Virus record (IMG/VR): IMGVR_UViG_3300049783_001441
DNA from: a virus
Taxonomy: Duplodnaviria; Heunggongvirae; Uroviricota; Caudoviricetes
DNA: 64,000 nt
Reading direction: 5' to 3' (one strand)
Positions 3,671-23,400 of this stretch are shown here, one piece after another. The stretch's first letter is position 1. The number at the start of each line of letters is the position of its first letter. The position numbers and the translations under genes were made by a program. The notes under the pieces were generated by a model. The model was given only the letters and a program-made list of their open reading frames with translations, made no database searches and was not told the origin of the DNA.

Positions 3671-5058
3671 CTGTCTCCGCACCTATACCGATTCGCGACC
3701 TACGCGTGGACTGGTCAGCCCCGGAAGCCGACCGCCGCGAGGACTACGCGGGCCGGGTAATGACCCGCAACGGGATCCCCGTCCAGCACGACGTAGCTTG
3801 GAAGCTGTACCGCCGCCTAGACGGCATCGTGAACGAGTTCACGGACTACATTCGGGAGCGCGTCCCCGGCTTCACCTTGACAGCTGCCGGCACTCACAGC
3901 GTCGTGTATCGCCACCTGGGGTTGTCGCCGGACTTGGAGTTACCCGAAAACGTCACCCTCACCGACTCGGGCGGTTTTTCGACAAACCACGCCGCACTTT
4001 GCGGCATAGTGCGCAAGCTGGGTGATGACTCTAGCGCGAAAGAGCTACTTCGCCGGGTCATACTGGCCAACAAAGCGCAGACCACGCGGGACGCCGCGAA
4101 GTCGTTCCTACACCCGGACAGGCTCACGCTGCTGGAGTGCGCCGGGGTAAAAGTACCGAAACCCAATGACTACCACGTCGTGGACGGGTTCATCCATTGC
4201 CGGTTCTCCCCTAAGACCTTGAACGGGCGCTTCGCCGCGTCCAAGCCCAACAACCACGGGTACAACAAGGCGATAAAAGCCATCTTTGGGCAACCTGGGT
4301 GGTCGTTCATCCAGGCCGACGCGGACCAGATCCACATTCGCATCCAGGCGAACGAGTGGGGGATCCCTCGCCTGTGTAACGTGCTGAATAGCGGCGAAGA
4401 TCCTCACATGGCGGTTATGCGCGCCCTCTGGGGTGACGCCGAGGTCGCGAAGCTGCCCGGATTCAACGGGTGGGTAAAGAAGCCGGATCCGGGCTCGGAG
4501 GCGGACGCCTGCCGGCAGTTGGGCAAGGTGCTCAACTACACCGGGGCCTACGGCGGCGGCGCGGCTACGTTGCTAGCGGCGGCGCTCAAGCCGATTAACC
4601 GCCTCGGCATACCGGTTATGCACGGTGCCGGTCTGGCGCAATTCCAAGACTTGCTGCGCTCGCGGAAAGCGCTAGAGCCCGAATGGGCGGAGCACTATTC
4701 TCGCGTCCGTGCCGAGTGGAAAGCGCGGGGTTACCTCGAAACCTCCGCGACCCGTCGCCGGTTCCGCTGCAAAGGCGGCAAGGTTACCGAGCTTTACAAC
4801 TGCACGGTTCTCGGTTTCGAGGCGGACCTCATGGGTGCAATGACTCACGGTGCCGCCGTGAAGTGGCCAAAGTACCTAGTTAACCAGTCGCATGACTCCC
4901 TGGTTCTGCACGCTCCTGACGAGATGGCGGAAGAGTTAAAGCGCGAACTGGAGCTGCACATGAACGTGCGCTACATCGCTAATCCGGGCTTCACCGCCCA
5001 CAATACCCCCTACACTGCGGGTGCCTCCATCACCCCCACGCTACAAGAGGTCAAGTAA
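3667..5058 (+). CDS. family A DNA polymerase, polymerase-domain protein
   Basis: motif A-like FIQADADQIHIRI, motif B RQLGKVLNYTGAYGGG, motif C NQSHDSLVLHAP; ATGA overlap with the exonuclease ORF. Confidence 0.8.
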   Translation: MTVSAPIPIRDLRVDWSAPEADRREDYAGRVMTRNGIPVQHDVAWKLYRRLDGIVNEFTDYIRERVPGFTLTAAGTHSVVYRHLGLSPDLELPENVTLTDSGGFSTNHAALCGIVRKLGDDSSAKELLRRVILANKAQTTRDAAKSFLHPDRLTLLECAGVKVPKPNDYHVVDGFIHCRFSPKTLNGRFAASKPNNHGYNKAIKAIFGQPGWSFIQADADQIHIRIQANEWGIPRLCNVLNSGEDPHMAVMRALWGDAEVAKLPGFNGWVKKPDPGSEADACRQLGKVLNYTGAYGGGAATLLAAALKPINRLGIPVMHGAGLAQFQDLLRSRKALEPEWAEHYSRVRAEWKARGYLETSATRRRFRCKGGKVTELYNCTVLGFEADLMGAMTHGAAVKWPKYLVNQSHDSLVLHAPDEMAEELKRELELHMNVRYIANPGFTAHNTPYTAGASITPTLQEVK

Positions 5059-7324: not shown

Positions 7325-8470
7325 TTAGAATGCGCTCATAACGGTTCGCCGCCAACCGCCCGTGAACTTAATGTAGAGGTAGTCTACACCGCCGTCCGTC
7401 CCGTATGCGAAACAGCCCACCGAGGCCGTGGACAGAGACGCCGACGTTGCGATGGTGCCGTCAGCGGACAACGCGAGCCGCAGCCCTTGGTGCTCGTCGC
7501 CCGCCTTTTGCTCGATGTCTAGGGTCGCGGTGGCGTTCGTGCTCACCGCCGCGGCGTCCCCGTTGACCTTGTGCAGACCCGTGGTGCCCGCGACGAAGCC
7601 TGCGATGGTGTGGCCTAACGACGCCGTGCCGCTACCCGCGCCCTGGAAGTCGATCCCGAACGCCGCGCCTTGCGCTTCGGCGATGGCACCGCGCCCAACG
7701 GCGGCAGAATGCAACCCCTTAGCCTGCGAGCCGGTGCCGATAGCTACGCAGTCCGTGTCGCTTACCGACGCCCCTACGCCTATGGCCACGTAGTCCACGG
7801 CCCCCGCGCCGATTATGGTTCCAAAGCCAAAATCGTAGTTCCTGGCAGACACCGCCAGAACCGTGGACGCTGCCACGCCGCCCGTCAGTAGCAGGTCGGC
7901 TTGGTCCGTGCCTAGCAGCACTGTCGAGAAGCTCTTTAGCTGGGATGTCAGCGAGGTTACGGTCAGGGTGCCGACATTCGTGGTGCCCGTGTCGGTAACT
8001 GTCAGCAAGGTCGCCGCAGCGCCCACAACAAACTGTGAGTTGTTGACGCCCTCCGTCACCACGAAGCCGCTGGAGTCTCCGACGCCGTGTACGAAACGGC
8101 AGGTGGTGGTCGCAGTCGCCGCCCCGGCTACCGTCCAGTCAGCTTGTTGTAGCTGCGTCCAGTTAGCCCCGTCATACGCCGTGATGTCACCGGTAGTGAT
8201 GCCTGGGATGCTCGTGTCGGTCAGTGCCAGGAACGTGGTAACTCCGGCGCTTGCGCCCCCGGTTGCGATCCACGCCGCCCCATCGTAGCGCCACAAGCTG
8301 TCAGCGCTGGTGGTGTCTAGGAAGGTGTCACCGAGAGCAAGCTCGCGGAAGGTGTAACCAGCAGCGTTCGGGTCGCCGGCCCCTATAAACCACCGTGAAC
8401 CCCTTATCTTCATGGCGAAGATCCCGTCGCCCCCGGACAACTGGATGTTTTTGTACGCTGTGGGTGGCAT
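7325..8470 (-). CDS. Gly/Ala/Thr-rich fibre or spike protein
   Basis: 381 aa, low-complexity G/A/T/V-rich shaft-like sequence with an N-terminal conserved-looking domain (KNIQLSGGDGIFAMKIRGSRWFIGAGDPNAAG); immediately downstream of paralogue B. Confidence 0.55.
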   Translation of the reverse strand: MPPTAYKNIQLSGGDGIFAMKIRGSRWFIGAGDPNAAGYTFRELALGDTFLDTTSADSLWRYDGAAWIATGGASAGVTTFLALTDTSIPGITTGDITAYDGANWTQLQQADWTVAGAATATTTCRFVHGVGDSSGFVVTEGVNNSQFVVGAAATLLTVTDTGTTNVGTLTVTSLTSQLKSFSTVLLGTDQADLLLTGGVAASTVLAVSARNYDFGFGTIIGAGAVDYVAIGVGASVSDTDCVAIGTGSQAKGLHSAAVGRGAIAEAQGAAFGIDFQGAGSGTASLGHTIAGFVAGTTGLHKVNGDAAAVSTNATATLDIEQKAGDEHQGLRLALSADGTIATSASLSTASVGCFAYGTDGGVDYLYIKFTGGWRRTVMSAF

Positions 8471-10159: not shown

Positions 10160-10585
10160 TTAGTAGACGCTGGTGCCGTCGTCAAGGGTAACTGCGACCG
10201 TCACTTCGTCGTCTGCGCCGTCAGCGCCTTCAGCGATGGCTCCAGCGTTGGCACGCATTTCGCGGACATACTGAACGGTGGCGGGTGCGGACATTCCGAT
10301 AGCGAAGCCGGCTCCGACTTGCGCGGACGAGTCAACGCCAGCAGCGTTGAGGCCCATTGCGATTCCGGTGCCGACGACGGCTCCGGCGATAACGTCGGTC
10401 AGGACTCGCATCTTGGAGCCTTGCTCGGGAAGCCATTCGCCAGCGAAGCGCTCGATAAGGAACGAAGCGCCAACGCCCGCGCCAACTCCAGCAGCCGCGG
10501 GAGCGGCCATCATGCTGTAATCGATGACGGTGGACAGAGCGCCACCTTGCTGGCTAAGGTCCATGTAGTAGTTATCGGTGTTCAT
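10160..10585 (-). CDS. Gly/Ala-rich small hydrophobic protein
   Basis: 141 aa with several G/A-rich hydrophobic stretches (AAPAAAGVGAGVGASFLI, VIAGAVVGTGIAMGLNAAGV). Confidence 0.45.
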   Translation of the reverse strand: MNTDNYYMDLSQQGGALSTVIDYSMMAAPAAAGVGAGVGASFLIERFAGEWLPEQGSKMRVLTDVIAGAVVGTGIAMGLNAAGVDSSAQVGAGFAIGMSAPATVQYVREMRANAGAIAEGADGADDEVTVAVTLDDGTSVY

Positions 10586-10655: not shown

Positions 10656-11486
10656 TTACTCGGCAGATTTGCCAAGCGCCTTTAAGGGTGCGGTAACTCC
10701 GGCTAGCGCGCCTTTCAGCTCACTCCCGAAGTAAAACAACACCGCAAGAAACACTACAATTAGGACCACGGCGTAGTACGCCCCGGCTGATTGTATGAAG
10801 ACTTTGAAGATGTTTTTTGACCACTCGCTGAAGCCTCCCTTGGCTTCAATCGCGGTATCTTTTAACGCGGCCAGTGCCCTAGGCACCGTAGTAATCGCCA
10901 CCTCCAGCCCACCGTTTAGGGCTCGCGAGGCAGTTTCATACCAGCCCGAATCTAGCGGCTCTAGCTCGCCGTCCATAATCTCATTCGCCAGCCTAAAGGC
11001 CACCTGGGAGCCGAGGTTGCCAGCCACTCGCGCGGCTCCTCGGATGGTATCTTCGATGTCGCCGGTGCCGTTTGCACGGGGTATCGCGGGCAGGCCAGCC
11101 AGCCCCAGAATGTGGAGTGCGCTGAACTGCTCCCAACCGTAGGTAGCTTCCAGCCGGCCCAGCTTGCGGGCGGACGCGACCTTGAACTGGTCGTTACCGG
11201 TGTCGGCGTAGCCAACGGCGTAGATATACGCGGCGCGGACGTGCGCGCCAAAGTTGGTGCGTGGACGCATCATTACGCGGGCGGTAACATTGGACGGGGT
11301 GCCGTCTGGCACCAGGCTAACGAGCGCCGCCATGCTGGGGTTAGACGAGCCGGCGAGGCGAGTGTCCGAGCAGCCACAACCACCGGAGCTAGCCGCTACA
11401 GAGGCGATGGACGAGGCGAGGTGGGAGTCTTCGCAGGCCGAGCATTTCCCCTTATTCGTATTCCCGCAACCGGATAACTCACTCAT
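10656..11486 (-). CDS. Cys-rich protein with C-terminal transmembrane anchor
   Basis: N-terminus CGNTNKGKCSACEDSH...SSIASVAASSGGCGC shares the IASVAA..GC motif with both virion-protein paralogues; C-terminal helix AYYAVVLIVVFLAVLFYFG. Confidence 0.5.
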   Translation of the reverse strand: MSELSGCGNTNKGKCSACEDSHLASSIASVAASSGGCGCSDTRLAGSSNPSMAALVSLVPDGTPSNVTARVMMRPRTNFGAHVRAAYIYAVGYADTGNDQFKVASARKLGRLEATYGWEQFSALHILGLAGLPAIPRANGTGDIEDTIRGAARVAGNLGSQVAFRLANEIMDGELEPLDSGWYETASRALNGGLEVAITTVPRALAALKDTAIEAKGGFSEWSKNIFKVFIQSAGAYYAVVLIVVFLAVLFYFGSELKGALAGVTAPLKALGKSAE

Positions 11487-11865
11487 AGGTAACCTCTGTG
11501 AGACTTGCGCCCCTGCTGCTAGTCCACTTTAACACTGCTAGTAACCCGAAGGCCACCGCAATGCAGGCCAAAGTCCACACCCACCACGGGGTAGCTTTAA
11601 CTTTTTCGATTCCGGCCTCTGCTCGGTCCAGGCTGTCCACCCAAAAACCGCCCTCTTCCGAGCTTAGCGGATCCGAGCCCCAGTCCGAGTCTGTCGAATC
11701 TGACGGCACTAGGTCCGTGCTCTCTTCGCCAGACTGCGGGCTGGGGTCGGTGTAGCCGTTAGACGGGTCGTCCAAAGCGTCCTGCTTACTAGATAGCTGG
11801 TTTTTTAGCCGGTTTGCTAACCCGGCGGCGCGACCTGCTTGGAACTCTGGGAAGGGCTTACCCAC
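11479..11865 (-). CDS. tail-anchored membrane protein (acidic N-terminal domain)
   Basis: C-terminal helix WWVWTLACIAVAFGLLAVL. Confidence 0.45.
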   Translation of the reverse strand: MGKPFPEFQAGRAAGLANRLKNQLSSKQDALDDPSNGYTDPSPQSGEESTDLVPSDSTDSDWGSDPLSSEEGGFWVDSLDRAEAGIEKVKATPWWVWTLACIAVAFGLLAVLKWTSSRGASLTEVTYE

Positions 11866-11868
11866 GAG

Positions 11869-12390
11869 TTACCTCCGCCCGACGAGAACGAGCATTAACA
11901 CCACGAACAGGGCTGCGAGCGCCGCGGCTCCCAGCCCCACCCACTTCCAAGGGCTCTCTGTCTCCACCAAGTAATTCGCGGCGTCTTTCAGGATCGCCCC
12001 GGCAGACTTTGACTCTGCCGGTGGGGGTGTGTCCACACCGGGCGCGTCGTCGGGTTGGTGCGAAGCGTATTCGCGGAGCATGGCTAGCTCCACGATCTGC
12101 CAGTCAACCATGCGAGCATGGGCGTAGCGGTCGTTCGCCGTGGCCGTTGCCGGCGGGCTAACCTTAATCAAGGTCTGCTCGATGCGGCGGTCAGCTTCGG
12201 CGATAAACGCGCGCAAGCCTTTACTGTCCACTGGCGGGCTCTGGATGGCCGTGAACCAGTTAACCCCGCTAGCTTTGAGCCAGCTTAGGCGAGCGCCTAG
12301 CTGGGTGTAGGAACCGTCCTCGTAGGGGTAGTCTACGCCTTGAACGCCGGTGGGGTTGCTCGTGTGGCTATCGGTGGCATTATGCGGCAT
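11869..12390 (-). CDS. tail-anchored membrane protein
   Basis: C-terminal helix VGLGAAALAALFVVLMLVLVG. Confidence 0.45.
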   Translation of the reverse strand: MPHNATDSHTSNPTGVQGVDYPYEDGSYTQLGARLSWLKASGVNWFTAIQSPPVDSKGLRAFIAEADRRIEQTLIKVSPPATATANDRYAHARMVDWQIVELAMLREYASHQPDDAPGVDTPPPAESKSAGAILKDAANYLVETESPWKWVGLGAAALAALFVVLMLVLVGRR

Positions 12391-13333
12391 TGGACTTGCC
12401 TCCGAGTGTCTTCGCGAGGAGCACCACGAGCACGAGTGCGGCCACGAGAATCAGAGCCCCCGCCGCGTATGCAAAGTAGTTGGGCTTGTCGTCGGTCAAC
12501 CCGAACTCGCCGCCGGCATCGAGTTCGCCGTTGTTACCGGGCTCGTCAGGGCGGTCCATTCTGCGGCCGTCTTCGCGGTCCATTTTGGTGCTGTTACCTT
12601 CGCTGCGATCTTCGAGGGTGTCAGCGCCGGGTACGCCACGGGTCTTGATGCCCTCGGGGTGCTTGATGCGCTGCATGGCCGTAGAGTTTAGCACCTGCAA
12701 CCGCGCCGCTTCACCGTGGCCCGTGGTGATCACGCCACGCGTGCGGTAGGCCGCCACTGGGATCACGCCGCCGGTTAGTCCCGGCATCGGGACATCGGCC
12801 CAACTCTCTTTGAATGGGGTCAGCATGAAGCCCGCGCCGTACTTGCGGAGTAGCTGCCCTAGCTCGCGGTAACCTGCCCGCCACGCCTCTACTTCGGGCA
12901 GCGTGCGTGCAGCGGCACGGCGAGCCCTACCGGTCAGGGGATCAGCCGGGTTGGCCGATGGCCCGCTAGGGTTGAGCAATCGGCGCACCTTTTCAGGCAT
13001 CCGGCCCGGCCTGGCAACGACGTGTTTGATTACCTGCTTCCAAGTCTGGCCCAGAAACGGCTTAATCAGAGCTTGCAGGCGGATAGAGTCGCGGCCTACT
13101 TCGGCTGTCAGGTTCGCCATGCGCAGATAATAGTACGGGCGCATACCCGTAGACAGCCACAGGTTTTTGTGCGCTTGCTTTTTGGTGAGTACCGCCCGAA
13201 CGACCTCTTGCTGTGCGGCCTTTAGGAAGGCTTCGCGGTCGCTAGTACCCCACGATGGCCACAACTGGGCCGCGTCTAGCGCTAGTGTGGGTAAGTCTCG
13301 GGAAAGCCCCGCCGAAATGTCCGTGTGGCTCAT
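12380..13333 (-). CDS. tail-anchored membrane protein (317 aa)
   Basis: C-terminal helix FAYAAGALILVAALVLVVLLA. Confidence 0.5.
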   Translation of the reverse strand: MSHTDISAGLSRDLPTLALDAAQLWPSWGTSDREAFLKAAQQEVVRAVLTKKQAHKNLWLSTGMRPYYYLRMANLTAEVGRDSIRLQALIKPFLGQTWKQVIKHVVARPGRMPEKVRRLLNPSGPSANPADPLTGRARRAAARTLPEVEAWRAGYRELGQLLRKYGAGFMLTPFKESWADVPMPGLTGGVIPVAAYRTRGVITTGHGEAARLQVLNSTAMQRIKHPEGIKTRGVPGADTLEDRSEGNSTKMDREDGRRMDRPDEPGNNGELDAGGEFGLTDDKPNYFAYAAGALILVAALVLVVLLAKTLGGKSNAA

Positions 13334-13659
13334 GGCGAACCCCTTCGCGGTAACATGGCAATGATGAGCACAACAAGTGCCAGGATAACCACCACGACAA
13401 CCGATAGGCCGGCATAGTTCGTTGGGTTTAGCTGGCTAAGGGCCAGCTCTAAGTGTTGCTCCACGCGGAGCAACATCGCATACGTTTCGGCATCGCCAGC
13501 TCGGCGGGCACGCAACTTTTGCCGCTGCACCTCGGCGAGCTTGGCCGGGATACTGGCGCTGGTCTGTAGGTACGCGGATACGCCGGGGGCTAACGCCGCC
13601 AGGGTATCCGAGTCCAAACGCCCGACAATGTCGAGCGCAGCGCCAGTAACGTCAGCCAT
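13330..13659 (-). CDS. tail-anchored membrane protein
   Basis: C-terminal helix LSVVVVVILALVVLIIAML. Confidence 0.45.
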   Translation of the reverse strand: MADVTGAALDIVGRLDSDTLAALAPGVSAYLQTSASIPAKLAEVQRQKLRARRAGDAETYAMLLRVEQHLELALSQLNPTNYAGLSVVVVVILALVVLIIAMLPRRGSP

Positions 13660-13662
13660 GGC

Positions 13663-14106
13663 CTAGCCGCGAGCCTTGCTGATGCCGAGCGCAATGAGCA
13701 CACCCAACAGCACAAACACCACGAGACCAATCACGCGCCCTGGGGTTACCAGGGGTGCGGGAGGGGTGACTAGGGGGTTGTTACTGGTGGTGTCGTCAAG
13801 TTCGTCAAACACGTCCTCGCCAGCCGAACCCTTACCTTGAGCGGCGCGGATAAGTTCAGCGGCGGTCGGTCCGAGTGCGTCCACGAGGTCCGCAGCGAGA
13901 CGAGCAGCTTCCGCTGGGCTGATGCCGGAATCACCGGAGCCGCCGCCGGAATCTGGGGTGTCGCCACCGGTCTTTCTGCCGTTTTCGAGTGGGGCCTTAC
14001 CCGCGAGGCGAGCTTCGCTAAGCTGTGGTTGGCCGCCATCTTCTTCGAGCAACAGACGTTCGTATTCGGCCTCGTCGGGCCAGTCTTCTAGGGGTGGCAT
14101 AGGCAA
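13663..14106 (-). CDS. tail-anchored membrane protein
   Basis: C-terminal helix VIGLVVFVLLGVLIALGI. Confidence 0.45.
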   Translation of the reverse strand: MPMPPLEDWPDEAEYERLLLEEDGGQPQLSEARLAGKAPLENGRKTGGDTPDSGGGSGDSGISPAEAARLAADLVDALGPTAAELIRAAQGKGSAGEDVFDELDDTTSNNPLVTPPAPLVTPGRVIGLVVFVLLGVLIALGISKARG

Positions 14107-14124
14107 CTCCTCGGGCTTTACCCG

Positions 14125-14904
14125 TTAGGTTTGAGTCATTGTAACTGGTTTCCCGCCAAAATAGGCGGCAACAGCTAGTAGTAGCATGGCGGCAACGAGA
14201 AAAAACAAGTTACCACCTTTGGGTGCCCGACCGGCTCCGGCCAGCCACCCGTGGTTTCGGGCCGACGAGGTTACCACCCGGCTGGAGGTAGACCCGAAGG
14301 GCTCCCAGTCGGCGGTAGCGTCGGCTTCGCGGAATTGAATACTGCACGACACGTTACCTCGCGCGTCGGCGGCGCACTCTGGAGGCGTGCCGATGTCCAC
14401 AAAAATGTGGGTCGGGCTACCCGGCATATTTACCCCGCTGTCCGAGGTCCAGCGCTGCCCGTTGGGGTGGAACCCTGCGAGCATGAAGCGGTACGGAAGG
14501 CCGATAGAAGCCGCCGCAGCCGCCAGGAATACCGAGAAGTCGTCACAGTCCCCAAGCTGGTGCTCTATGGTGTCTAGCGGGTGCTGGATGTACTCTCCCG
14601 CCTCCAACACGTAGTAAAGGTTCTCCACGGCCCACTGGTGGATGGCACGGGCTTGGTTCACGTAGTCTCTGGGTGCTACTCTGGCCTTGCGGAGAATGCG
14701 GGTAACCACGAACACGCGCAACTCGTTGGCCTCCGCGGCCTCGTCGGAAACTTTGCGCAGACTGCCCAGCCGCTCGGACCACGACATTCGGTCCCACGAA
14801 GAGCGGGAGACTTGCGGGCCACGAATCGTGGGTACCGAAATCTTACGGGGCTTGCGCGGGCGACCTAGGCGGGTCTCGTCCATCACGGGTAAGGGGATCA
14901 GCAT
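14125..14904 (-). CDS. transglutaminase-like cysteine protease, C-terminally membrane-anchored
   Basis: Cys box GDCDDFSVFLAAAAASIGLPYRFMLAGF (cf. G.C.DFA.....L.RA.GIPAR.V.GY), His SPTHIFVDIG, then Asp; C-terminal helix LFFLVAAMLLLAVAAYFG. Confidence 0.6.
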   Translation of the reverse strand: MLIPLPVMDETRLGRPRKPRKISVPTIRGPQVSRSSWDRMSWSERLGSLRKVSDEAAEANELRVFVVTRILRKARVAPRDYVNQARAIHQWAVENLYYVLEAGEYIQHPLDTIEHQLGDCDDFSVFLAAAAASIGLPYRFMLAGFHPNGQRWTSDSGVNMPGSPTHIFVDIGTPPECAADARGNVSCSIQFREADATADWEPFGSTSSRVVTSSARNHGWLAGAGRAPKGGNLFFLVAAMLLLAVAAYFGGKPVTMTQT

Positions 14905-14907
14905 TGG

Positions 14908-15660
14908 TTACTCCGGGGCCGCTGCGAGGCGCAACGCCGTGTAGATGGCCACGATCAAAAGCACGACCATGAGGGCGGCCTTGCCGCCTACCCTTAACCG
15001 TTTGGCGTTGGCGAGGGACAGCATCGGTCGGCCCCCGGCAGCGCTGCTGCCTTTGTCGTGCGCCAGGGAGCCCGCAGCGGCAATCGCAGCGGCCTCGGTG
15101 GCGTTGTTCACCTCTGACGACTCGCGCGCCGCCCACGCCCCTAGAAACGACGTGTAAGCCGCTGTGCGGATACGGATGTGCGCGGCATTCCAGGCGTGCC
15201 GTTCGATGCGCCGCCCGAACAGTAACGCCAGATCCAGCACGCTCATATCCGACTCGCCTGCTGTCTTGACCGTGTCAGCCCAGCGGCCCGCGTCTAGCTC
15301 TTGCTCGATGAGGGCGCGGACGTTGGTTACCGGGTCAAGCCTCGGGTCTGCCGGGTGCGCGTATGCGCGACCTTCGCGGAATACCGGACCCGGCGGGTTC
15401 AGTATGCTGCCCGCGCCGTCTGGCACCTTCAGTTGGTGCAGCCCAACACTGAACTCCCGTGTACGCCCGTCTGGCCACTTCGTGTACGCAACAGCGTCGT
15501 TACGAAGGCGGCTTTCGGCCCACGCATTCGCCGCCGCAGCTAGGGTAAGTGCCGGAGTCGTGCCGTACTGGCCGTAAACCCGGATGAGCGTGGCTAGGTT
15601 CTGCCGCTGCTCTGCATTCAGGCTGGCAGCGGGTGTGAAGGCGGCTAGGGGTAGGCTCAC
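14908..15660 (-). CDS. tail-anchored membrane protein
   Basis: probable GTG start at 15658-15660 overlapping the upstream stop (GTGA); the track ORF extends to 15846, which is an implausible 190-nt overlap; C-terminal helix ALMVVLLIVAIYTALRLA. Confidence 0.45.
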   Translation of the reverse strand: MSLPLAAFTPAASLNAEQRQNLATLIRVYGQYGTTPALTLAAAANAWAESRLRNDAVAYTKWPDGRTREFSVGLHQLKVPDGAGSILNPPGPVFREGRAYAHPADPRLDPVTNVRALIEQELDAGRWADTVKTAGESDMSVLDLALLFGRRIERHAWNAAHIRIRTAAYTSFLGAWAARESSEVNNATEAAAIAAAGSLAHDKGSSAAGGRPMLSLANAKRLRVGGKAALMVVLLIVAIYTALRLAAAPE

Positions 15661-16286
15661 TTGGACCCCCGGAACTTGGACCACGCGAACACCGCTGCGA
15701 TTGTGACCAGCAGCACCAAGCCGAACGCTACGGAGCCTTTGGCTGCGACCTTGGCTGCGTCTCGCACGGGTTGGACGTAACTCGCGGCCTTGTCGGCAAC
15801 CCCGCTGATCCACGGCACAATGCCCTCGGACTTTGAGGGGTACCACGGTACCAAAGGTCCGCTCGCAGGCTGGTACTGGAACCGGCGGTTGTTGCCGGAA
15901 GCGCGGTGACTAACGTGGACGTGCCCGCCCTTGCTCGCGTGGTACAGGATTACCTGACCTACCGGAATATCCGGGTTCAGGTACAGGTACTCCATAAGGT
16001 CGCGCGACGTGCCTTCCACCGGCTTGACATCCGCAGCTTCGCCCTTGATGTGCTGGGAGTTATTGTTGCTCCCCACGCACGCACTGTTGTTGATTACGGC
16101 AGTTCGGAAGCCGCTTATGCGCTGTAGCCCGCCGAACTGCACCCACAACGGGTCCAGCACGTTGATAGCCAGCGCCATGAGCGCCGCCCTCTGGGTGGGG
16201 CTAGGCGTGTTGGGGTTACCCGCAGCGGCGGCGCAACCACTACGGGTAAGCGCCTCTTCGGACAGATACAGGCTAAGCATGGCCAC
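15657..16286 (-). CDS. LAS-family (peptidase M15-like) zinc metallopeptidase, C-terminally membrane-anchored
   Basis: SQHIKGEAADV matches S-x-H-x-x-G-x-A-x-D; second metal motif GGHVHVSH; C-terminal helix VAFGLVLLVTIAAVFAW. Confidence 0.65.
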   Translation of the reverse strand: MAMLSLYLSEEALTRSGCAAAAGNPNTPSPTQRAALMALAINVLDPLWVQFGGLQRISGFRTAVINNSACVGSNNNSQHIKGEAADVKPVEGTSRDLMEYLYLNPDIPVGQVILYHASKGGHVHVSHRASGNNRRFQYQPASGPLVPWYPSKSEGIVPWISGVADKAASYVQPVRDAAKVAAKGSVAFGLVLLVTIAAVFAWSKFRGSK

Positions 16287-16289
16287 GGG

Positions 16290-16892
16290 TTACCTCAACT
16301 TCGCGTAGGCGCGGGGTACGGTCATTGCGAGCAAGGCAAGGCTGATACTGACCAGCGCAATCAGCAGGTACAGACCCAACATACTCACCCGGCGTTGGTT
16401 GCGCTGTCCGGCTGTAATGCGGGTCTCGCGGGCTTTCTCGACCAACAGAGCGCCTTCGCGGGTAATGTCGCCCTGGAGGATAGCGGTTGCAGCCGCCTCC
16501 TTTTCGCGAGCGCCACCACCGTTTTTGGTGCGCATCTTCTCGATAGACTGCGCCAATTCTGCGGGGGTATCGTCAGAGTACTTGGCGTACACGCGGCGGT
16601 ACCGCTTGCTGAAGCCTTGCTCTTCCAGTTGGTTACGGATCAGCACCTTGGTCGGGTCCGTGTTGGCGGCCCCGGCTCCGATAGCACTACCTACGATCGA
16701 GACAACCGCGCCCGCAGCCGCCAAGGCGACATTGATCGGGGGTAACGGCAGCATTACGCCGATCGTGGTTAGTGCTGAACCCACCGCAACCGTGCCGCCG
16801 CCTATCGCCGTCTGCGCTGCGATACCTTTCTCTACCCGCTCAACTTCCGTTGGCGTTGGCGTGTGGAGTACGGGTGGCTGGGACGGCAGCAC
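16290..16892 (-). CDS. tail-anchored membrane protein
   Basis: hydrophobic ALAAAGAVVSIVGSAIGAGAA plus C-terminal helix LGLYLLIALVSISLALLAM. Confidence 0.45.
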   Translation of the reverse strand: MLPSQPPVLHTPTPTEVERVEKGIAAQTAIGGGTVAVGSALTTIGVMLPLPPINVALAAAGAVVSIVGSAIGAGAANTDPTKVLIRNQLEEQGFSKRYRRVYAKYSDDTPAELAQSIEKMRTKNGGGAREKEAAATAILQGDITREGALLVEKARETRITAGQRNQRRVSMLGLYLLIALVSISLALLAMTVPRAYAKLR

Positions 16893-17308
16893 TACGCCAC
16901 CTCAAGCGCCGCGTCCGGCCCCGGAGCCGGGAACAGCGCGACCAGCACGACTAGCGCAATGAGGGCGAAGATAGCGGCAACTCCGCCGATCCATGCCCAC
17001 TTGTTTTCGCCACGGAAAACGTCTAGGTAACTGGGTGGGTTCAGCAGCGCGTTTTCGGCGTCTTCGTTCGCTTGTAGCGCCAACTCTAGGTCCACGGCGG
17101 CTTGATCGAGGTCGCCTTCGTCGTTGGCGCAATCGTCGAGACGCCCTTCCCACTTGGCGTACCACGCGCTTAGCTTCTTATTGCGGTACGACTTCTTACC
17201 GTCCGCTTTGGCAGCCATGTAACCATCATACAGCCGTTGGGCCTTGGCGCACGAGGTCTTTTCAGGCGTGGCCGCTAGGCGGCTCGGGCTGGGTTTAGAT
17301 GGTCGCAT
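16892..17308 (-). CDS. tail-anchored membrane protein
   Basis: C-terminal helix WIGGVAAIFALIALVVLVALF. Confidence 0.45.
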   Translation of the reverse strand: MRPSKPSPSRLAATPEKTSCAKAQRLYDGYMAAKADGKKSYRNKKLSAWYAKWEGRLDDCANDEGDLDQAAVDLELALQANEDAENALLNPPSYLDVFRGENKWAWIGGVAAIFALIALVVLVALFPAPGPDAALEVA

Positions 17309-17411: not shown

Positions 17412-18629
17412 CTAGAAGTCGAGGTCAGCGACCGTAATCTGCGAGGTCTTGGTGGTCTTGCGGGGCTTGCGGGCCTTCGGCTTGGTGGTCTTTGCCTTCG
17501 GGGCGGCCTTTGCCTTTGCCTTTGCCTTTGCCTTTGCCTTCGGGGCGGCCTTTGCCTTCGGGGCGGCCTTCGGTGCGGCCTTTGCCTTGGCGCGGGCGGC
17601 GTCACGGGCAGCGTTGAGCTTCAGCCACTTGGCGGCTACTGGCTTGATCTTCGCGGCTTCGGCAGTGCTGGGCTTGTGCAGTTGCGACTGGCTGGAGACA
17701 GCCTTGACGCGGCCTTGCAGGCTTGCAGTAGCGCGGACAGTGAGCTTGCCCTTGCTAGCGCCGCTCGTGCCGCGGCCCACGTAGAAGCCAGTTACCCAAC
17801 CGGCACCAGTCTCGTAGCGCACGGGCTGGCCTAGCGACGGGACTGCGGTGAGCGCCTTACCGGAATCGGTGGCGGCGGTCTTCTTTGCGGCGGGAGCTTT
17901 GCGCTTCGCGGTAGCTTTGCGCGTAGCCGGAGCGGCGGTCTTCTTAGCGGCAGTCTTCTTTTTGGCCGGAGCTTTGCGCTTTGCCGGAGCGGTCTTCTTT
18001 GCAGCGGTCTTCTTTGCCTTGGTATCGCGCTCGCTAGTCGAGCCCGGCCCGCTGCGTGGGCGTCCGCCTGCCGGTGCCTTGGCGGTCTTGCGCTTCGCCG
18101 CGGGAGCTTTGCTCGTCGGAACCAGCTTCATGCCGCGGATAGCGGCGAGCGAGCGCAGCTCTGCGAGGGAGAGTTCCTTGCAGTTGGCCGCGGCAGCAGC
18201 GGTAACCGGAGCACCGAGTGCGAGCGACCATGACGAACCGCTCTTGTTGGCCTTGCTGCCGGCGAACTTGTAGTTCGCGAGGCAACGGGCCTGGGTGGCT
18301 GCGCCGGTAGCCTTGACGGCGATCTCGGCGACGTTACCCTTGCGGATAGACACTTTCACCGGGATGCTGGACAGCTTGCTGCCGGCACCGAGGCGGAGCT
18401 TAGCGGTGTACCAGACGGTAGCGCGCTTGGCGTTACCCTTGGTTTCCTTGCGGCGGTTGTTGATTGCGGCCTGAATCTTGGCGGACTCGGCAGCGGCGGG
18501 TGGGTAGCGTTTAAGCAGTGCTTTGGTAGCAACGATCATGGGAGGAACCTCCGTCCAAACGGACATAGTGTGCGGGGCTCCAAACAAAGCACCCGGAGAC
18601 AGGGTAACCCCTGGTCCGGGTAACGGCAA
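17412..18629 (-). CDS. Lys/Ala/Pro-rich histone-H1-like basic DNA-binding protein
   Basis: 405 aa; long KAKAAPKAAPKAKAAPKAKAKAKAK and KKTAAKKTAPAKRKAPAKKK tracts encoded by GCCTTT-type simple repeats (about 17500-17600). Confidence 0.55.
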   Translation of the reverse strand: MPLPGPGVTLSPGALFGAPHTMSVWTEVPPMIVATKALLKRYPPAAAESAKIQAAINNRRKETKGNAKRATVWYTAKLRLGAGSKLSSIPVKVSIRKGNVAEIAVKATGAATQARCLANYKFAGSKANKSGSSWSLALGAPVTAAAAANCKELSLAELRSLAAIRGMKLVPTSKAPAAKRKTAKAPAGGRPRSGPGSTSERDTKAKKTAAKKTAPAKRKAPAKKKTAAKKTAAPATRKATAKRKAPAAKKTAATDSGKALTAVPSLGQPVRYETGAGWVTGFYVGRGTSGASKGKLTVRATASLQGRVKAVSSQSQLHKPSTAEAAKIKPVAAKWLKLNAARDAARAKAKAAPKAAPKAKAAPKAKAKAKAKAKAAPKAKTTKPKARKPRKTTKTSQITVADLDF

Positions 18630-18669: not shown

Positions 18670-20631
18670 TTAGCCACAGGCGCAGCCGCCCCAGTCGTGC
18701 GTAACTTCTCCGCAGTCTTGGCACTGGTCCAAGTAAGGCGCGTGGGGGTCTTCGTCCGTGGGGCCGGTAAACTCTGGCGTGCTGAACTTGTTCGCGGTGA
18801 TCCAGTTGAGCTGGTTCGTGGCGGTGTGCAGCGCGGCGGCTTCGGCGGGTAGCATTGCAGTGGGCACGTCACCTCTGAAGGTGTCCAAGTTCGCGCCAGT
18901 CTCGTTGTCCTCCTCGTCGTCATCGAGGTAGGCGTCTAGGGCGAAATCGTCTTCGTCTTCGTCTTCGTCCTCGCTCGTGCCGTCTTCGTCCGTGCCGTCT
19001 TCAATCTCGGACTCCACGTCGTCGTGCTCGATGTCGGCGGGGGTAACGGCTTCGTCACCGGCTAGCTCGGCTGCGTGGGCGCTCTGGTTCAGTGCGCGCC
19101 ACTGGACCCACATCAGGTCGTCGCCCATACTCTCGCCAGCTTCCGGGTGTACGCAGTCAAAGTCGAATAGCGCGGACAACCACTTAGCGTGGGCGTCGAG
19201 CGACCCAAGGCATTCACCGTAGCGCTCGCCACCCAGCGAAACGAAGGCTTCGTTCAGCCGGCGGATCACCTTGTCGGGGTTACCCTTTTTGTGGTCCTTA
19301 GCGACCTTGCGCACGGTCTGGCGCACAAGCTCGTCTTCATCCGTCTCGGACAGCCTACCTAGCACCGGGGCGTCTGGGAGCCCGGCGAGTAGCTCTACGG
19401 TGTAGTCGCGGAGGTCTGCGGCGTTCTGCGCGTCAGCCTCTTCGTTGTGCTCTTCTGGGGTCATATCGTCGGGGGTCGTAGCTTCGCCCTCTTCGGCGGC
19501 TTCGGCGGCTTCGGCGGCTTCGTCCGACTCCGCGTGGTACTCGGCTTGCTCGTCTTCGTGGTCGCGCGCATCGAAGTCTAGCTCTTCCGGCTCTTCCGGC
19601 TCTTCCGGCTCGTGCGCTACGTCGCGCTCGTGCATCGGGGTGTCCCCGGACAGCGCCGCTACCCGCCCCTTGGTCGGCATCGGCACGCCCGCGCCCAGTT
19701 GCGGGGTCGCTGCGGCTTCGGCTTCGCGCTTCGCTTGCAGTTCGTCCAGAATGCCGTCAACGCGGGCGTTGAGCGCGGCTTCGGTCTCCGCGGGCTCGGT
19801 CTCTGGTTCGGTCTCTGGTTCGGTCTCGGGGTCCATCATCACAACCTCACCGACTGCCGGGCGCCACGGGATCACGCCACTGAAGAACGGGTCGAGCGCC
19901 GCGCCGACGCGCGGCGTCGGGATGGCGGCGGCAAGCTCGGTCTCGGCTTCACCCATAAAGGATCGCGCAATGGTTTCGGACTCGGCAAGCTCCATCGCCA
20001 CCCCGTCGAGGTCTTCGCAGTGCTCGGTGAGCAACCACGTCGGGTCCTCTGCTCGGTACACGCGCAAGACGAGCGCCGCGAACCGGGGGTAGATGGTGTC
20101 CCAGGACTCTTCGGACTGCGCGGCTACCAGCTTTGCCAACGCCTTGAGCAGTCGCCGACTGGTTAGGGGCTTCGCTTCGGGGTCGGCGGCAGGTGTAGTC
20201 GGGTTCATGGCTTCGTCGCGGAACTCGTAGAGCCTAGCTCGCCACGTATCGCCGGGAGAGGTCGCCTCAAGGCCGGGGTACCATGCCAGCAACCGCGCCG
20301 CCTGGACCGTCTGTTGTGCCGCCTTGTCGTGGTCCATACCCGTACCGACCGCCTCTGAATACGCCGCGCTAAGTTCGCCCAGCACGATCGCAGCGGAGTC
20401 GAGGTCTTCCGGGTCATCTTCGCGGGTCTGGTGAGCTTGCTCCAGCAGGTACCGCGTGGTCTGCGTCCACCCCTTTTCATCCGTGTCGACGGCGTCTAGT
20501 GCCTCGCGGATCGCGGCTCGGGTCGCCCACACGTTGTCTTCAGTGGCTTTGTGGATCGCGGCCTTCAGGTGCTTCAGCGCGGCCTTTCGGACTTGCTTAA
20601 GTTCGGCCTTGGCGGCCTTTTTCTTGCTCAT
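18670..20631 (-). CDS. large acidic low-complexity protein with C-terminal Cys cluster
   Basis: start MSKKKAAKAELK at 20631; E/D-rich repeat blocks (ETEPETEPETEP, EPEEPEEPEE, AEAAEAAEAAE, EDEDEDEDD); C-terminus CQDCGEVTHDWGGCACG. Confidence 0.55.
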   Translation of the reverse strand: MSKKKAAKAELKQVRKAALKHLKAAIHKATEDNVWATRAAIREALDAVDTDEKGWTQTTRYLLEQAHQTREDDPEDLDSAAIVLGELSAAYSEAVGTGMDHDKAAQQTVQAARLLAWYPGLEATSPGDTWRARLYEFRDEAMNPTTPAADPEAKPLTSRRLLKALAKLVAAQSEESWDTIYPRFAALVLRVYRAEDPTWLLTEHCEDLDGVAMELAESETIARSFMGEAETELAAAIPTPRVGAALDPFFSGVIPWRPAVGEVVMMDPETEPETEPETEPAETEAALNARVDGILDELQAKREAEAAATPQLGAGVPMPTKGRVAALSGDTPMHERDVAHEPEEPEEPEELDFDARDHEDEQAEYHAESDEAAEAAEAAEEGEATTPDDMTPEEHNEEADAQNAADLRDYTVELLAGLPDAPVLGRLSETDEDELVRQTVRKVAKDHKKGNPDKVIRRLNEAFVSLGGERYGECLGSLDAHAKWLSALFDFDCVHPEAGESMGDDLMWVQWRALNQSAHAAELAGDEAVTPADIEHDDVESEIEDGTDEDGTSEDEDEDEDDFALDAYLDDDEEDNETGANLDTFRGDVPTAMLPAEAAALHTATNQLNWITANKFSTPEFTGPTDEDPHAPYLDQCQDCGEVTHDWGGCACG

Positions 20632-20689
20632 ATTGGTGTCCTCTGCGCATAAAGTCCACCGGGTGCGCGCTACACGCCGGTTCGCCGGG

Positions 20690-22366
20690 TTAGACCCGGA
20701 TATTTCGCAACGCCCGGAGCCGGAGTGCCTTGATAGCACCGGTCGGCCCGACGATGGAACTCACAGTGCGTATCCGGCGCAAGCCGGCTCGGCTCGTCAC
20801 CCATAGCGGAGAATTAGCGTCCATCACTGTTTCGTAGCCCGACTCTGCGCGTCGACCCCACACTCCGGCGTTGTCCAGCCACACCACCGGCACCTTGCGG
20901 CCAATGGCCTCGTACTGGACTTTAGCGTCACTATCGCCCCACGCCACCACTCCGGCCACGTTCAGCGTGCGGATCTGGTCCATCCACCACGCGGTGAGAT
21001 CTAGATGCCCGGTGTAGCTGTCCATAGGCTTGGCTCTCTTGGCCGCTCCGAATGCTTCGGTAGGCGTCCCGTTGAAGTGCAAAACCACGCCCACCAAGGG
21101 GTTTGACGTGAAGGATCGCACCATCGGCAAGCTGGTTCGGATCAGGTCTGCGCATGAGCCGCTGATGTCGATGAGCACTAGCGACACGGGTGGATCCAGT
21201 TCCGCCCTGCGTGCCGAGCTAAGCCGGTACCGTTTGGAGACCAGTTCACGGATGAGCTTCGCTCCGTCAATTCGCGGGGACTCTAGGTAGCCCGCGCCCA
21301 CGCTGAACCCGTCGAACAGGGCTTCGAGCGCCATGGTAATATCGCGTTGCAGCTTCGGGTGAGGTGCCGGGTACTTCGTGATGAGGTCGTCGTACTGGTC
21401 CGTATAGTTACGCATGCCGCTCATGGGCGTGCCGTTGCGCCCGGCTCCGCCGCTCGACCCGGCCACAGGGGGTGGCCCGACCAAGTCTTCTAGCTCTTTG
21501 AGTAACTCCTGCTCGCGCTGGCTTGCGCCCGCGTCGTCGTCAGCTTCCCACTGACCCTCTGCCTCGCCTTCGCCTTCGCCGGCTTTGGGGTCTTTTGGCT
21601 CTATAGGCTCGCCCTTTTCGCCCTTTTCGTCTTCGCTGTCTTCGCCTTCGCCGCCCTCTTGGCCGTCTTCGCCTTCGCTCTCTCCGTCTTCGCCGCCGCC
21701 ATCGCTCTCGCCTTCACCGTCTTCGCCCTCTTCCCCTTCTCCGTCCTCGCCATCTTCGCCGTCATTGCCATTTTCGCCGTCCTCGCCGTCCTCGCCATCG
21801 TCAGCCTCTCCGTCTTCGTTTTCGCTGGGTTCGTTTTCGTCGTCTTCGGGGTCAGCCCCCGAGCCTTCGCCTTCACCGTCTGCATCTTCGTCGTCGTCTT
21901 CGCCGGGTTCGCCTTCGCCGCCGCCTTCACCGCCCGGCTCTTCGTCTTCGTTACCGTCTTCGTCTTCGTCTTCGTCATCTTTACCGGGCTCACCCTTACC
22001 GTCGCCGGGCTCACCGTCGCCGCCCGGTCCCGGAGGGTCGCCGCCGGGTGGGTTGTCGTCTTCATCCGGGGGTATTCCGCCGCCGCCGCCGCCGGAAGGC
22101 GGGTCTTCGGTGTCTTCGTCGGAGTCTTCCTGCTCGGGTTCAGGTGGTGCGTTCACGGGTGCAAGCACCGTGGCACCGCCCATCTGCTCAACCCACTCGA
22201 ACAGCTCTTCTAGGCCCAGTGCCCGTGTCTCGTAATCCTCCGTGGGGACTGGCACGCGCACCGGGTCGCCAATGCCAGTTAGCTTCAGCCACGCACCGCC
22301 GTCTTGCGGCGTGATGGTAAGCTCGGTGCCGAGTAGGGCAGCGTCCAGCAGGGCGTCTAGTGTCAT
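20690..22366 (-). CDS. vWA-domain protein with long Gly/Glu/Asp-rich linker
   Basis: MIDAS-type VSLVLIDISGSCADL at the C-terminal domain; about 250-aa GEGEDGEDGE low-complexity region; 4-nt overlap with the MoxR gene. Confidence 0.6.
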   Translation of the reverse strand: MTLDALLDAALLGTELTITPQDGGAWLKLTGIGDPVRVPVPTEDYETRALGLEELFEWVEQMGGATVLAPVNAPPEPEQEDSDEDTEDPPSGGGGGGIPPDEDDNPPGGDPPGPGGDGEPGDGKGEPGKDDEDEDEDGNEDEEPGGEGGGEGEPGEDDDEDADGEGEGSGADPEDDENEPSENEDGEADDGEDGEDGENGNDGEDGEDGEGEEGEDGEGESDGGGEDGESEGEDGQEGGEGEDSEDEKGEKGEPIEPKDPKAGEGEGEAEGQWEADDDAGASQREQELLKELEDLVGPPPVAGSSGGAGRNGTPMSGMRNYTDQYDDLITKYPAPHPKLQRDITMALEALFDGFSVGAGYLESPRIDGAKLIRELVSKRYRLSSARRAELDPPVSLVLIDISGSCADLIRTSLPMVRSFTSNPLVGVVLHFNGTPTEAFGAAKRAKPMDSYTGHLDLTAWWMDQIRTLNVAGVVAWGDSDAKVQYEAIGRKVPVVWLDNAGVWGRRAESGYETVMDANSPLWVTSRAGLRRIRTVSSIVGPTGAIKALRLRALRNIRV

Positions 22367-23400
22367 GTGATGTTCCGGTTGCTCGGTGTGGACGTGCGGC
22401 GAATGTCGCGGGACAGGTCACGGGGCGACTTGTGGCTGATCTTGCCAGAGGCCAGGATCTTCGCAATGCGGGTAGCGGTAGTCCGGGGGCTAGAACCGTC
22501 CGCGCTGCGTAACACCCAACCACGTAGGACGAACTCCAGTTCGAGGATTAGCAGGGGAGTCTGGTCAGAGGCGCTCGCCAGGGTCAACGGGACGTCTAGG
22601 TCCGCGATCTCGCGGAGCGCCGCTTCGGACTCTTGCAGGGACAGGATTGACCCGTTCTCCTTTGCCAGCGCCAGTAGTTCTTTAAGCATCATCGTCAACC
22701 ATACCGAGTTGAACTTCGTTTTCAGGTTCAGGACTTCGACTTGTATGGTATCGGGTAGCTCGGGCACCTGAACGCGGCGGACACGGCGCATGAATGCGTC
22801 AGTGAGAGGGCGCATATCGTTACTGGTAATCGCGACAATTACGTTGGAAAGGTCGGTGTAAAGGTGCCGGCCTGGAGCAATCGGCACCCGGCCAGACTGC
22901 AACCAATCGAGCAGCAACGCCTCGACCCGCTCCGGGGCCTTGTCGATTTCATCCAGAATCAGGATTACTTGGCGACCGCCGGAGGACCGCTCGCCCTTGA
23001 CAAGCGGCGTCTCGCGGGGTTGCCCGGTTGTGAGCCGCGCCACTTGCGCCAACACGCCCAACTGCAACGTCTCTTTGGAGTTACCCGCTACAGCCGCTTG
23101 CACATTGACACCGGCGAATAGGTCGCTGGAATCGGCCCATGCGTGGAATTGGAATATCTTGGTGGTGCCGCCAGTGAGCCGAGCCAACGACTCGCCAAGG
23201 TACGTCTTACCGACGCCGGGAGCCCCTTCCAGCAGCATGGCTTGCGCACCGTCCATGCCCGACAAGCGACGACGGAACAAGCCTCGACAAGCGGCCACAA
23301 CCGGAAGCGCAGGGTAGTAACCCACGCGCTTTAGCTCGCCGACCCACTGTCCAGTCGACAGCGCGCCTAGCTCGTCAAAATCAAGGGTGCGTTCAGCCAT
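22363..23400 (-). CDS. MoxR-like AAA+ ATPase
   Basis: Walker A GAPGVGKT, Walker B ILILDEIDKAP, sensor VIVAITSN; the MoxR-vWA gene pair is typical. Confidence 0.8.
   Translation of the reverse strand: MAERTLDFDELGALSTGQWVGELKRVGYYPALPVVAACRGLFRRRLSGMDGAQAMLLEGAPGVGKTYLGESLARLTGGTTKIFQFHAWADSSDLFAGVNVQAAVAGNSKETLQLGVLAQVARLTTGQPRETPLVKGERSSGGRQVILILDEIDKAPERVEALLLDWLQSGRVPIAPGRHLYTDLSNVIVAITSNDMRPLTDAFMRRVRRVQVPELPDTIQVEVLNLKTKFNSVWLTMMLKELLALAKENGSILSLQESEAALREIADLDVPLTLASASDQTPLLILELEFVLRGWVLRSADGSSPRTTATRIAKILASGKISHKSPRDLSRDIRRTSTPSNRNIT

What the first reader, a model, noticed from the sequence alone, without database searches (positions are those of the whole stretch)
10656..17308. Uninterrupted array of 11 genes whose products all end in a single C-terminal transmembrane helix
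Every ORF from 10656 to 17308 (minus strand, tightly overlapping) encodes a soluble N-terminal domain followed by one hydrophobic helix within the last ~30 residues. That is a tail-anchored topology. Two carry recognisable enzymatic domains (transglutaminase-like protease, LAS/M15 peptidase). The array sits directly upstream of the virion-protein/fibre genes. In known phages this many consecutive tail-anchored proteins beside structural genes is the hallmark of internal-membrane viruses (the PRD1-like membrane protein set). It is not expected in a tailed-phage morphogenesis operon.
Basis: partly seen in the sequence, partly recalled or inferred. Interest (0 to 1): 0.8.

Follow-up and report, generated by a model that had tools for sequence, protein, structure and literature searches.

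The report
Eleven membrane-tail-anchored phage proteins in one operon
A large, novel virus-like element found in glacier-ice metagenomes carries a run of eleven genes, all of which seem to make proteins that hang from the cell membrane by their final stretch. Three of these proteins look like enzymes that cut the bacterial cell wall. The arrangement is real and unusual, but nothing here shows that it belongs to a membrane-containing, PRD1-like virus.

Summary
Eleven tightly packed minus-strand genes (10656-17308; P0001-P0011) each end in one hydrophobic segment of 18-19 residues (mean Kyte-Doolittle 2.3-3.5) lying 3-23 residues from the C-terminus, with no N-terminal signal peptide. That is the layout of a tail-anchored membrane protein. 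None of the 70 other gene-like ORFs in the window has this layout, and in control phages it is rare and never in runs. The N-domains are not paralogous, and all but the M15 domain are orphans found only in this element. P0007 has a transglutaminase-like core, P0009 an M15 endolysin-type peptidase, and P0008 resembles phage lysozyme/SLT-like enzymes (embedding search only). The element is large (≥64 kb; contigs up to 98.8 kb; ~90 kb examined). It carries a split family-A DNA polymerase, an integrase, helicases, a separate holin-endolysin pair and accessory genes shared with tailed phages. It occurs in at least seven ice-metagenome assemblies. PRD1 has no such run. The element has PolA rather than the protein-primed PolB, its size is wrong, and no double-jelly-roll capsid protein or FtsK-HerA-type packaging ATPase was detected. 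No HK97 capsid, portal or terminase was detected either, so the virion type is unresolved. Best reading: a lineage-specific set of membrane-anchored proteins, including enzymes that act on the cell wall, used during infection.

The parts
16892..17308 (-). P0011, 138 aa ORF (Logan/JGI start gives 108 aa); N-domain of unknown type; C-terminal TM 109-126
16290..16892 (-). P0010, 200 aa (154 aa from the JGI start); Gly-rich hydrophobic N-terminal stretch (35-76) plus C-terminal TM 171-188; possibly two membrane spans
15657..16286 (-). P0009, M15 (Peptidase_M15_3) endolysin-type peptidase domain with an S-x-H-x-x-G-x-A-x-D motif; C-terminal TM 184-201; homologues in Bacteroides/Pelagibacter phage endolysins lack the TM
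   Evidence: Pfam 1.2e-6; phrog_894 endolysin 3.4e-12; tblastn homologues; homologue lacks TM
14908..15846 (-). P0008, 312 aa ORF (250 aa from the JGI start, which overlaps the P0009 stop by 4 nt); possible lysozyme/SLT-like domain; C-terminal TM 290-307
   Evidence: ESM-atlas embedding hits to Phage_lysozyme2/SLT clusters of tailed phages, 0.90-0.92: a lead only; orphan
14125..14904 (-). P0007, transglutaminase-like (NlpC/P60-type fold) cysteine peptidase domain (Cys motif QLGDCDDF); C-terminal TM 233-250
   Evidence: Pfam Transglut_core 6.8e-8; the only relative is itself
13663..14106 (-). P0006, acidic, largely low-complexity N-region; C-terminal TM 125-142
13330..13659 (-). P0005, small helical N-domain; the most hydrophobic C-terminal TM (KD 3.51)
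12380..13333 (-). P0004, helical N-domain, disordered Gly/Asp-rich linker, C-terminal helix (TM)
   Evidence: AF2 single-sequence model, pLDDT 49; C-terminal helix 223-248 of the 64-317 fragment
11869..12390 (-). P0003, N-domain of unknown type; C-terminal TM 153-170 with an RR tail
11479..11865 (-). P0002, acidic N-region; C-terminal TM 95-112
10656..11486 (-). P0001, orphan N-domain (no relative among 1.84 billion representative proteins); C-terminal TM 236-253
   Evidence: AF2 uninformative
10160..10585 (-). adjacent downstream gene in the same orientation: weak holin/anti-holin-like protein
   Evidence: phrog_126, E = 0.0056; one TM

Best explanation
The eleven genes form one co-directional operon of a large, novel phage-like element from glacier ice. 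It encodes a lineage-specific set of single-pass, C-terminally anchored membrane proteins with unrelated N-domains. At least three N-domains are peptidoglycan-hydrolase-type catalytic domains: an M15 endolysin-type peptidase (P0009), a transglutaminase/NlpC-fold cysteine peptidase (P0007) and a probable lysozyme/SLT-like domain (P0008). The proteins are most likely made during infection and inserted into the host cytoplasmic membrane as tail-anchored proteins. There they probably form a membrane-tethered set of envelope-modifying enzymes and partner proteins, which remodel or breach the host cell wall during phage entry or exit. This set is separate from the element's canonical holin-endolysin cassette (P0016/P0017, 46164-47480). 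What is shown: the layout, the three enzyme domains, the clustering well beyond chance, and that the element recurs in several samples. What is inferred: membrane insertion, topology (N-domain cytoplasmic under standard tail-anchor insertion), complex formation and the role in infection.
For: Single C-terminal TM segments, no signal peptides, short C-tails. Clustering far above the baselines: window 0/70; LR745208 1.8% with no adjacent pairs; MCubed, CSP3 and PRD1 0-1 each. PG-hydrolase-type domains: Pfam and PHROG hits, atlas lead for P0008. The M15 homologues in tailed phages lack the anchor, so the anchor was added in this lineage. A holin-like gene follows the array in the same orientation. 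The element carries phage genes: split PolA, integrase and MTase; a Vi1/Ackermannviridae-type PG-binding endolysin next to a 2-TM holin; a prohibitin protein shared with tailed phages. The element is present in at least seven independent ice-metagenome assemblies.
Against: Eight of the eleven N-domains have no recognisable function: P0001, P0004, P0007 and P0008 are orphans. Several C-tails carry +2/+3 net charge, which argues against tail translocation; the predicted topology is therefore uncertain. No expression data exist (DNA runs only). The virion type of the element is unknown, so no role in entry or egress could be tied to a structural module.
Confidence: 0.35

Rival explanations
1. One reading: the proteins are the virion membrane proteins of an internal-lipid-membrane (PRD1/tectivirus-like, double-jelly-roll) virus. 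They are inserted into the host membrane with N-domains in the cytoplasm; once the membrane vesicle is enclosed by the capsid, these domains face the capsid, and the lytic domains act when the membrane tube crosses the envelope at entry, as PRD1's P7 transglycosylase does.
For: This reading explains the topology puzzle: tail-anchored N-domains in the cytoplasm end up on the outer face of the virion membrane. PRD1 P7 is itself a lytic enzyme with a C-proximal TM. Tectiviruses carry NlpC and M15-type enzymes besides their endolysin (PMC6950372). No HK97 capsid, terminase or portal was detected in ~90 kb.
Against: No double-jelly-roll MCP and no FtsK-HerA-type packaging ATPase were detected; the only large ATPase is an AAA+ MoxR-type protein paired with a VWA protein. 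The polymerase is family A, not protein-primed PolB. The element is at least 64-90 kb, not 15-18 kb. PRD1's membrane protein set is not a run of tail-anchored proteins. No array protein resembles any PRD1 protein. The element shares accessory genes with tailed phages.
Confidence: 0.08
2. The proteins are a lysis-accessory module: membrane-tethered endolysin-like enzymes working with the adjacent holin-like gene (10160-10585) to time or complete host lysis.
For: P0009 is endolysin-type. A holin-like gene lies immediately downstream in the same operon orientation.
Against: The element already has a canonical 2-TM holin plus PG-binding endolysin pair elsewhere. Spanins have N-terminal TMs or are lipoproteins, not C-terminal anchors. 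Eight of the proteins have no lytic domain.
Confidence: 0.15
3. Virion-borne ejection/entry proteins of a tailed phage, packaged in the capsid or tail and injected into the host, where their hydrophobic C-terminal helices insert into the membrane to build an ejection channel, as T7 gp14-16 do.
For: P0008 resembles phage tail-lysozyme clusters. Lytic domains are typical of entry machinery.
Against: Known ejection proteins are few and large, not eleven small anchored proteins. There is no virion proteomics or structural module to link them to.
Confidence: 0.1
4. Membrane-anchored proteins that build a phage replication or protective compartment, or exclude superinfecting phages, at the inner face of the membrane, with the enzyme domains acting on cytoplasmic precursors or phage proteins.
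For: Standard tail-anchor insertion leaves the N-domains in the cytoplasm (inference). The element carries many DNA-metabolism and DNA-binding proteins (HU, a Lys-rich histone-like protein, helicases).
Against: There is no specific evidence.
Confidence: 0.1

Closest known systems
PRD1 (Tectiviridae) membrane-associated lytic transglycosylase P7/P14
   Same: A phage lytic peptidoglycan enzyme anchored by a hydrophobic segment near its C-terminus (PRD1 P7: 265 aa, TM at 213-243). It is used for DNA entry through the envelope and is separate from the endolysin P15.
   Different: PRD1 has one such protein, not a run of eleven. There is no sequence similarity. PRD1's genome is 15 kb with PolB, a DJR MCP and a packaging ATPase; none of these was found here.
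Bacterial tail-anchored membrane proteins (TAMPs; E. coli TA protein biogenesis, PMC6794478; Tat-dependent TA proteins, bioRxiv 10.1101/2023.11.02.564894)
   Same: Single C-terminal TM with a short C-tail and an N-terminal soluble domain. The Tat-dependent examples include a carboxypeptidase and a protease.
   Different: Those are single host proteins, and the Tat-dependent ones have N-terminal Tat signal peptides, which these lack. Nothing known has eleven unrelated tail-anchored proteins in one phage operon.
Phage endolysins of the M15 (T5-endolysin-like, Peptidase_M15_3) family, e.g. in Bacteroides phages BF503P1 etc.
   Same: P0009's N-domain is homologous (tblastn E down to 6e-12).
   Different: The homologues are soluble, about 130 aa, and have no C-terminal TM.
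Huge phage LR745208 (uncultured, 485 kb)
   Same: Shares a homologue of one giant protein (28% identity over 1000 aa), so the element may belong to a large-phage group.
   Different: It has no array: 1.8% tail-anchored-like genes, never adjacent, and no homologue of P0009.

Membership tests
Tectiviridae / PRD1-like internal-membrane phages | [quoted passage not shown] | tested here: inconclusive
   No DJR MCP family hit among about 120 ORFs scanned with PHROGs/Pfam.
Tectiviridae / PRD1-like internal-membrane phages | FtsK-HerA-type (A32-like) packaging ATPase | tested here: not met
   The only large Walker-A ATPases are an AAA+ MoxR-type protein (AAA_5) paired with a VWA protein and an unknown 621-aa protein with no family hit.
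Tectiviridae / PRD1-like internal-membrane phages | Protein-primed family B DNA polymerase | tested here: not met
   The polymerase is family A (Pfam DNA_pol_A 5.2e-10), split into two ORFs 2210-3670/3667-5058. It is distantly related to Microbacterium phage PolI.
Tectiviridae / PRD1-like internal-membrane phages | Small genome (~15-18 kb) with two-segment layout | tested here: not met
   The window holds at least 64 kb of the element, and its contigs reach 98.8 kb. Tectivirus genomes are about 18 kb (PMC6950372).
Tectiviridae / PRD1-like internal-membrane phages | Membrane protein complement homologous to PRD1 P7, P11, P14, P16, P18, P32 etc. | tested here: not met
   No array protein matches any PRD1 protein (blastp). 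PRD1 has 0 tail-anchored-like genes with N-domains of 50 aa or more and no such run.
Caudoviricetes (tailed phages) | HK97 MCP, portal and terminase large subunit | tested here: inconclusive
   Not detected in ~90 kb (window plus flanks L006/L008/L013). The element extends beyond what was seen.
Caudoviricetes (tailed phages) | Accessory genes shared with tailed phages | tested here: met
   Vi1/Ackermannviridae-type endolysin; M15 endolysin as in Bacteroides phages; prohibitin protein as in Burkholderia/Acinetobacter phages; giant-protein homologue in a huge phage. These are not defining, since accessory genes move between lineages.
Phage lysis cassette (holin-endolysin-spanin) | Spanin-type topology (i-spanin with N-terminal TM; o-spanin lipoprotein) | tested here: not met
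   All eleven proteins have C-terminal anchors.
Bacterial tail-anchored membrane proteins | Single C-terminal TM, short translocated C-tail, no N-terminal signal sequence | tested here: met
   Hydrophobicity scan and starts. AF2 places a C-terminal helix in P0004. Insertion and topology are untested experimentally.

The most novel reading that the evidence does not exclude
The array is the membrane-protein complement of a large (≥90 kb), unrecognised internal-lipid-membrane dsDNA phage. Its tail-anchored proteins are built into the virion membrane with their N-domains, including three peptidoglycan hydrolases, facing the capsid. They serve as an entry machine, much as PRD1's P7 does but greatly expanded. 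This would be by far the largest bacterial membrane-containing virus known.
Probability: 0.07. Interest if true: 0.9.

Novelty: new variant of a known kind. Interest (0 to 1): 0.45.

Why it matters
An operon of eleven unrelated tail-anchored proteins, several with cell-wall enzyme domains, is to my knowledge without precedent in phages. The run is far above the background of single C-terminal-TM proteins in this genome and in control phages. If the proteins form a membrane-tethered enzyme assembly, they show a new way for a phage to attack or reshape the cell envelope. If they are virion membrane proteins, the element would be an unprecedentedly large membrane-containing phage. Either way the proteins are orphans confined to one lineage found in glacier ice, so their functions are open.

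Tried and rejected
Homologues of the array proteins: only the element itself for P0007 and P0008 (search for homologous proteins). Only itself for P0001 among 1.84 billion representatives. ESM-atlas: no hit for P0001, only a weak, unrelated CobN hit for P0004. No tblastn match in INPHARED phages for P0007 or P0004, and none in IMG/VR by the peptide patterns of P0007. So the test 'homologous arrays in other phage genomes' found nothing to compare. AlphaFold2 on single sequences of P0001 and P0004 gave pLDDT 37 and 49; fold searches were not run because such models give meaningless matches. NCBIfam scan of the unannotated array proteins: nothing significant. Search for the virion module: PHROGs and Pfam on about 120 ORFs of the window and flanks found no capsid, portal, terminase, DJR MCP or packaging ATPase. 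The genome search could not reach the JGI/Logan records. The window has no held host genome. Integrase peptide patterns found no relatives in GTDB genomes. Exact 25-mer scans of metagenome contigs and viral contigs found nothing. No tRNA or Rfam family in the window. Promoter/terminator scan: no sigma-70-like promoter; terminator-like hairpins modestly above shuffles, which says little. No RNA holder was listed for the array region. The idea that the C-terminal anchors are a shared, duplicated module was tested and rejected: no conserved motif, no DNA repeats.
Full report
Observation. They are tightly packed, with 3-11-nt overlaps or short gaps, and several carry Shine-Dalgarno-like motifs. 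Each product ends in one hydrophobic segment. The 19-residue Kyte-Doolittle maximum is 2.2-3.5, and the refined 18-19-residue core ends 3-23 residues from the C-terminus. P0010 also has a Gly-rich hydrophobic stretch near its N-terminus. The segments often start with an aromatic or Pro 'P..W/Y' residue, and several are followed by positive tails (GRR, PRRGSP, KARG, SKFRGSK, RAYAKLR). No product has an N-terminal signal peptide, also under the shorter starts that the JGI/Logan gene callers chose. The N-domains are not paralogous (blastp), and the C-terminal segments share only hydrophobicity (alignment A2). So this is not one gene family that has expanded: eleven unrelated N-domains each carry a C-terminal anchor. 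The clustering far exceeds chance. No other gene-like ORF of the 70 in the window has this layout. Scored the same way, a 485-kb huge phage has 10 such genes among 544 and none adjacent. Microbacterium phage MCubed has 0/47, Burkholderia phage CSP3 1/45 and PRD1 0/22. The sequence is real: copies 99.5-100% identical occur in at least seven independent JGI and Logan assemblies of ice metagenomes from 2024.

What the N-domains are. P0007 has a transglutaminase-like core (Pfam 6.8e-8, above the gathering score; Cys motif QLGDCDDF). P0009 has an M15 endolysin-type peptidase with an S-x-H-x-x-G-x-A-x-D motif (Pfam 1.2e-6; PHROG endolysin phrog_894, 3.4e-12). Its closest relatives are endolysins of Bacteroides and Pelagibacter phages, and those lack the C-terminal TM, so the anchor was added in this lineage. 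In embedding space P0008 lies next to the phage tail-lysozyme (PF18013) and SLT clusters of tailed phages (0.90-0.92). This is a lead, not a test. The other eight N-domains are orphans or low-complexity regions: P0001 has no relative among 1.84 billion representatives, and P0007 and P0008 have only themselves. Single-sequence AlphaFold2 models were poor (pLDDT 37 and 49). The P0004 model shows a helical N-domain, a disordered Gly/Asp linker and a C-terminal helix.

Context. The window is not a bacterial chromosome held in GTDB. It is a stretch of a large phage-like element that recurs in glacier-ice metagenomes. Upstream (5', toward higher coordinates) are a Lys-rich histone-H1-like protein, an acidic repeat protein, a VWA protein with a DxSxS MIDAS motif and a MoxR-type AAA+ ATPase. 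Downstream are a weak holin/anti-holin-like gene (10160-10585), an unknown protein, and a protein with YadA-head-like repeats (7325-8470). Further on are a family-A DNA polymerase split into exonuclease and polymerase ORFs in different frames (2210-3670/3667-5058; the same split is in the Logan contigs), a tyrosine integrase and a DNA methyltransferase. Elsewhere in the element there are a canonical 2-TM holin plus a PG-binding endolysin homologous to that of Vi1/Ackermannviridae phages (46164-47480), an SPFH/prohibitin protein shared with Burkholderia and Acinetobacter phages, HU and HTH regulators, helicases, a DUF3987 primase-like protein, and two giant proteins beyond the left edge. One giant protein has CBM5_12/TSP3 repeats; the other is related to a protein of the 485-kb huge phage LR745208. 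No capsid, portal, terminase, DJR MCP or packaging ATPase family was detected in about 90 kb of this element, so its virion type cannot be set from these data.

Interpretation. The tail-anchored description is supported as a prediction. Under the standard tail-anchor route in bacteria (PMC6794478), the N-domains would sit in the cytoplasm. That is an odd place for peptidoglycan hydrolases, which makes the topology a real question, not a detail. PRD1's membrane proteins are mostly small proteins with N-terminal or whole-protein TMs. Only the lytic transglycosylase P7 is anchored near its C-terminus, and PRD1 has no run of such genes. No array protein resembles a PRD1 protein. The element has family-A rather than protein-primed family-B polymerase, is at least 4-6 times a tectivirus genome (PMC6950372), and lacks any detected DJR MCP or FtsK-HerA ATPase. 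Its accessory genes are shared with tailed phages. The reading that remains best supported is a lineage-specific, membrane-tethered set of proteins, including three cell-wall hydrolase-type enzymes, made during infection to remodel or breach the host envelope (entry or exit). It is separate from the element's canonical lysis pair. I hold this with modest confidence (0.35), because eight N-domains are uncharacterised and no expression or localisation data exist. Rivals are: virion membrane proteins of an unrecognised large membrane-containing phage (0.08; the one reading that solves the topology puzzle neatly, as with PRD1 P7); a lysis-accessory module with the adjacent holin-like gene (0.15); virion ejection proteins (0.1); and a membrane compartment or exclusion role (0.1).

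Verdict. Novelty: a new variant of a known kind (phage membrane-anchored cell-wall enzymes), organised in a way I found no precedent for. Interest 0.45. Decisive tests are listed in the next steps: complete the element and fold its proteins with MSAs; map topology experimentally; assay the enzymes; run virion proteomics.

Noticed in passing
window 2210-3670 (+) and 3667-5058 (+): The family-A DNA polymerase is split into an N-terminal 3'-5' exonuclease/RNase H-like ORF and a C-terminal polymerase ORF in different frames, overlapping by ATGA. The same split appears in independent Logan contigs, so it is not a one-off assembly error: a split or frameshifted polymerase.
   Followed up: partly
window 20690-22366 (-) and 22363-23400 (-): A MoxR-type AAA+ ATPase (AAA_5, 1.6e-13) next to a VWA protein with a DxSxS MIDAS motif and a long Gly/Asp/Glu-rich low-complexity region: a MoxR-VWA pair encoded by a phage.
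   Followed up: partly
window 17412-18629 (-): A 405-aa protein with long AKK/PAKK lysine-rich repeats resembling histone H1 or bacterial Hc1-type tails, just upstream of the array. The window also encodes an HU-family (Bac_DNA_binding) protein (the exact ORF was not pinned down).
   Followed up: no
window 46164-46655 (+) and 46692-47480 (+): A canonical lysis pair: a 2-TM holin-like protein (P0016) followed by an endolysin (P0017) homologous to the PG-binding N-acetylmuramidases of Vi1/Ackermannviridae and Dickeya jumbo phages.
   Followed up: yes
beyond the left window edge (L006/L013/L014): Two giant proteins: 2862 aa with faint CBM5_12/TSP3 hits, and at least 2112 aa. The latter is related (28% identity over about 1000 aa) to a protein of the uncultured 485-kb huge phage LR745208. 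This suggests the element may be a large or huge phage.
   Followed up: partly
window 7325-8470 (-): A 381-aa protein with G-x-x-S-x-A-x-G repeats like YadA-head/Hep_Hag adhesin or fibre repeats; no family hit.
   Followed up: no
window 31562-32359 (-): An SPFH/prohibitin-family membrane protein (phrog_200, 5.8e-48) homologous to 'lysogenization'/prohibitin proteins of Burkholderia, Acinetobacter and Faecalibacterium phages.
   Followed up: partly
whole element (window plus flanks, about 90 kb): No recognisable virion structural family (capsid, portal, terminase, DJR MCP, packaging ATPase) anywhere in about 90 kb of an element that otherwise looks like a phage. The structural module lies outside the sequence in hand or is highly divergent.
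   Followed up: partly
window 18670-20739 (-): A 689-aa acidic protein with PETEPETEPETE and poly-acidic repeats.
   Followed up: no
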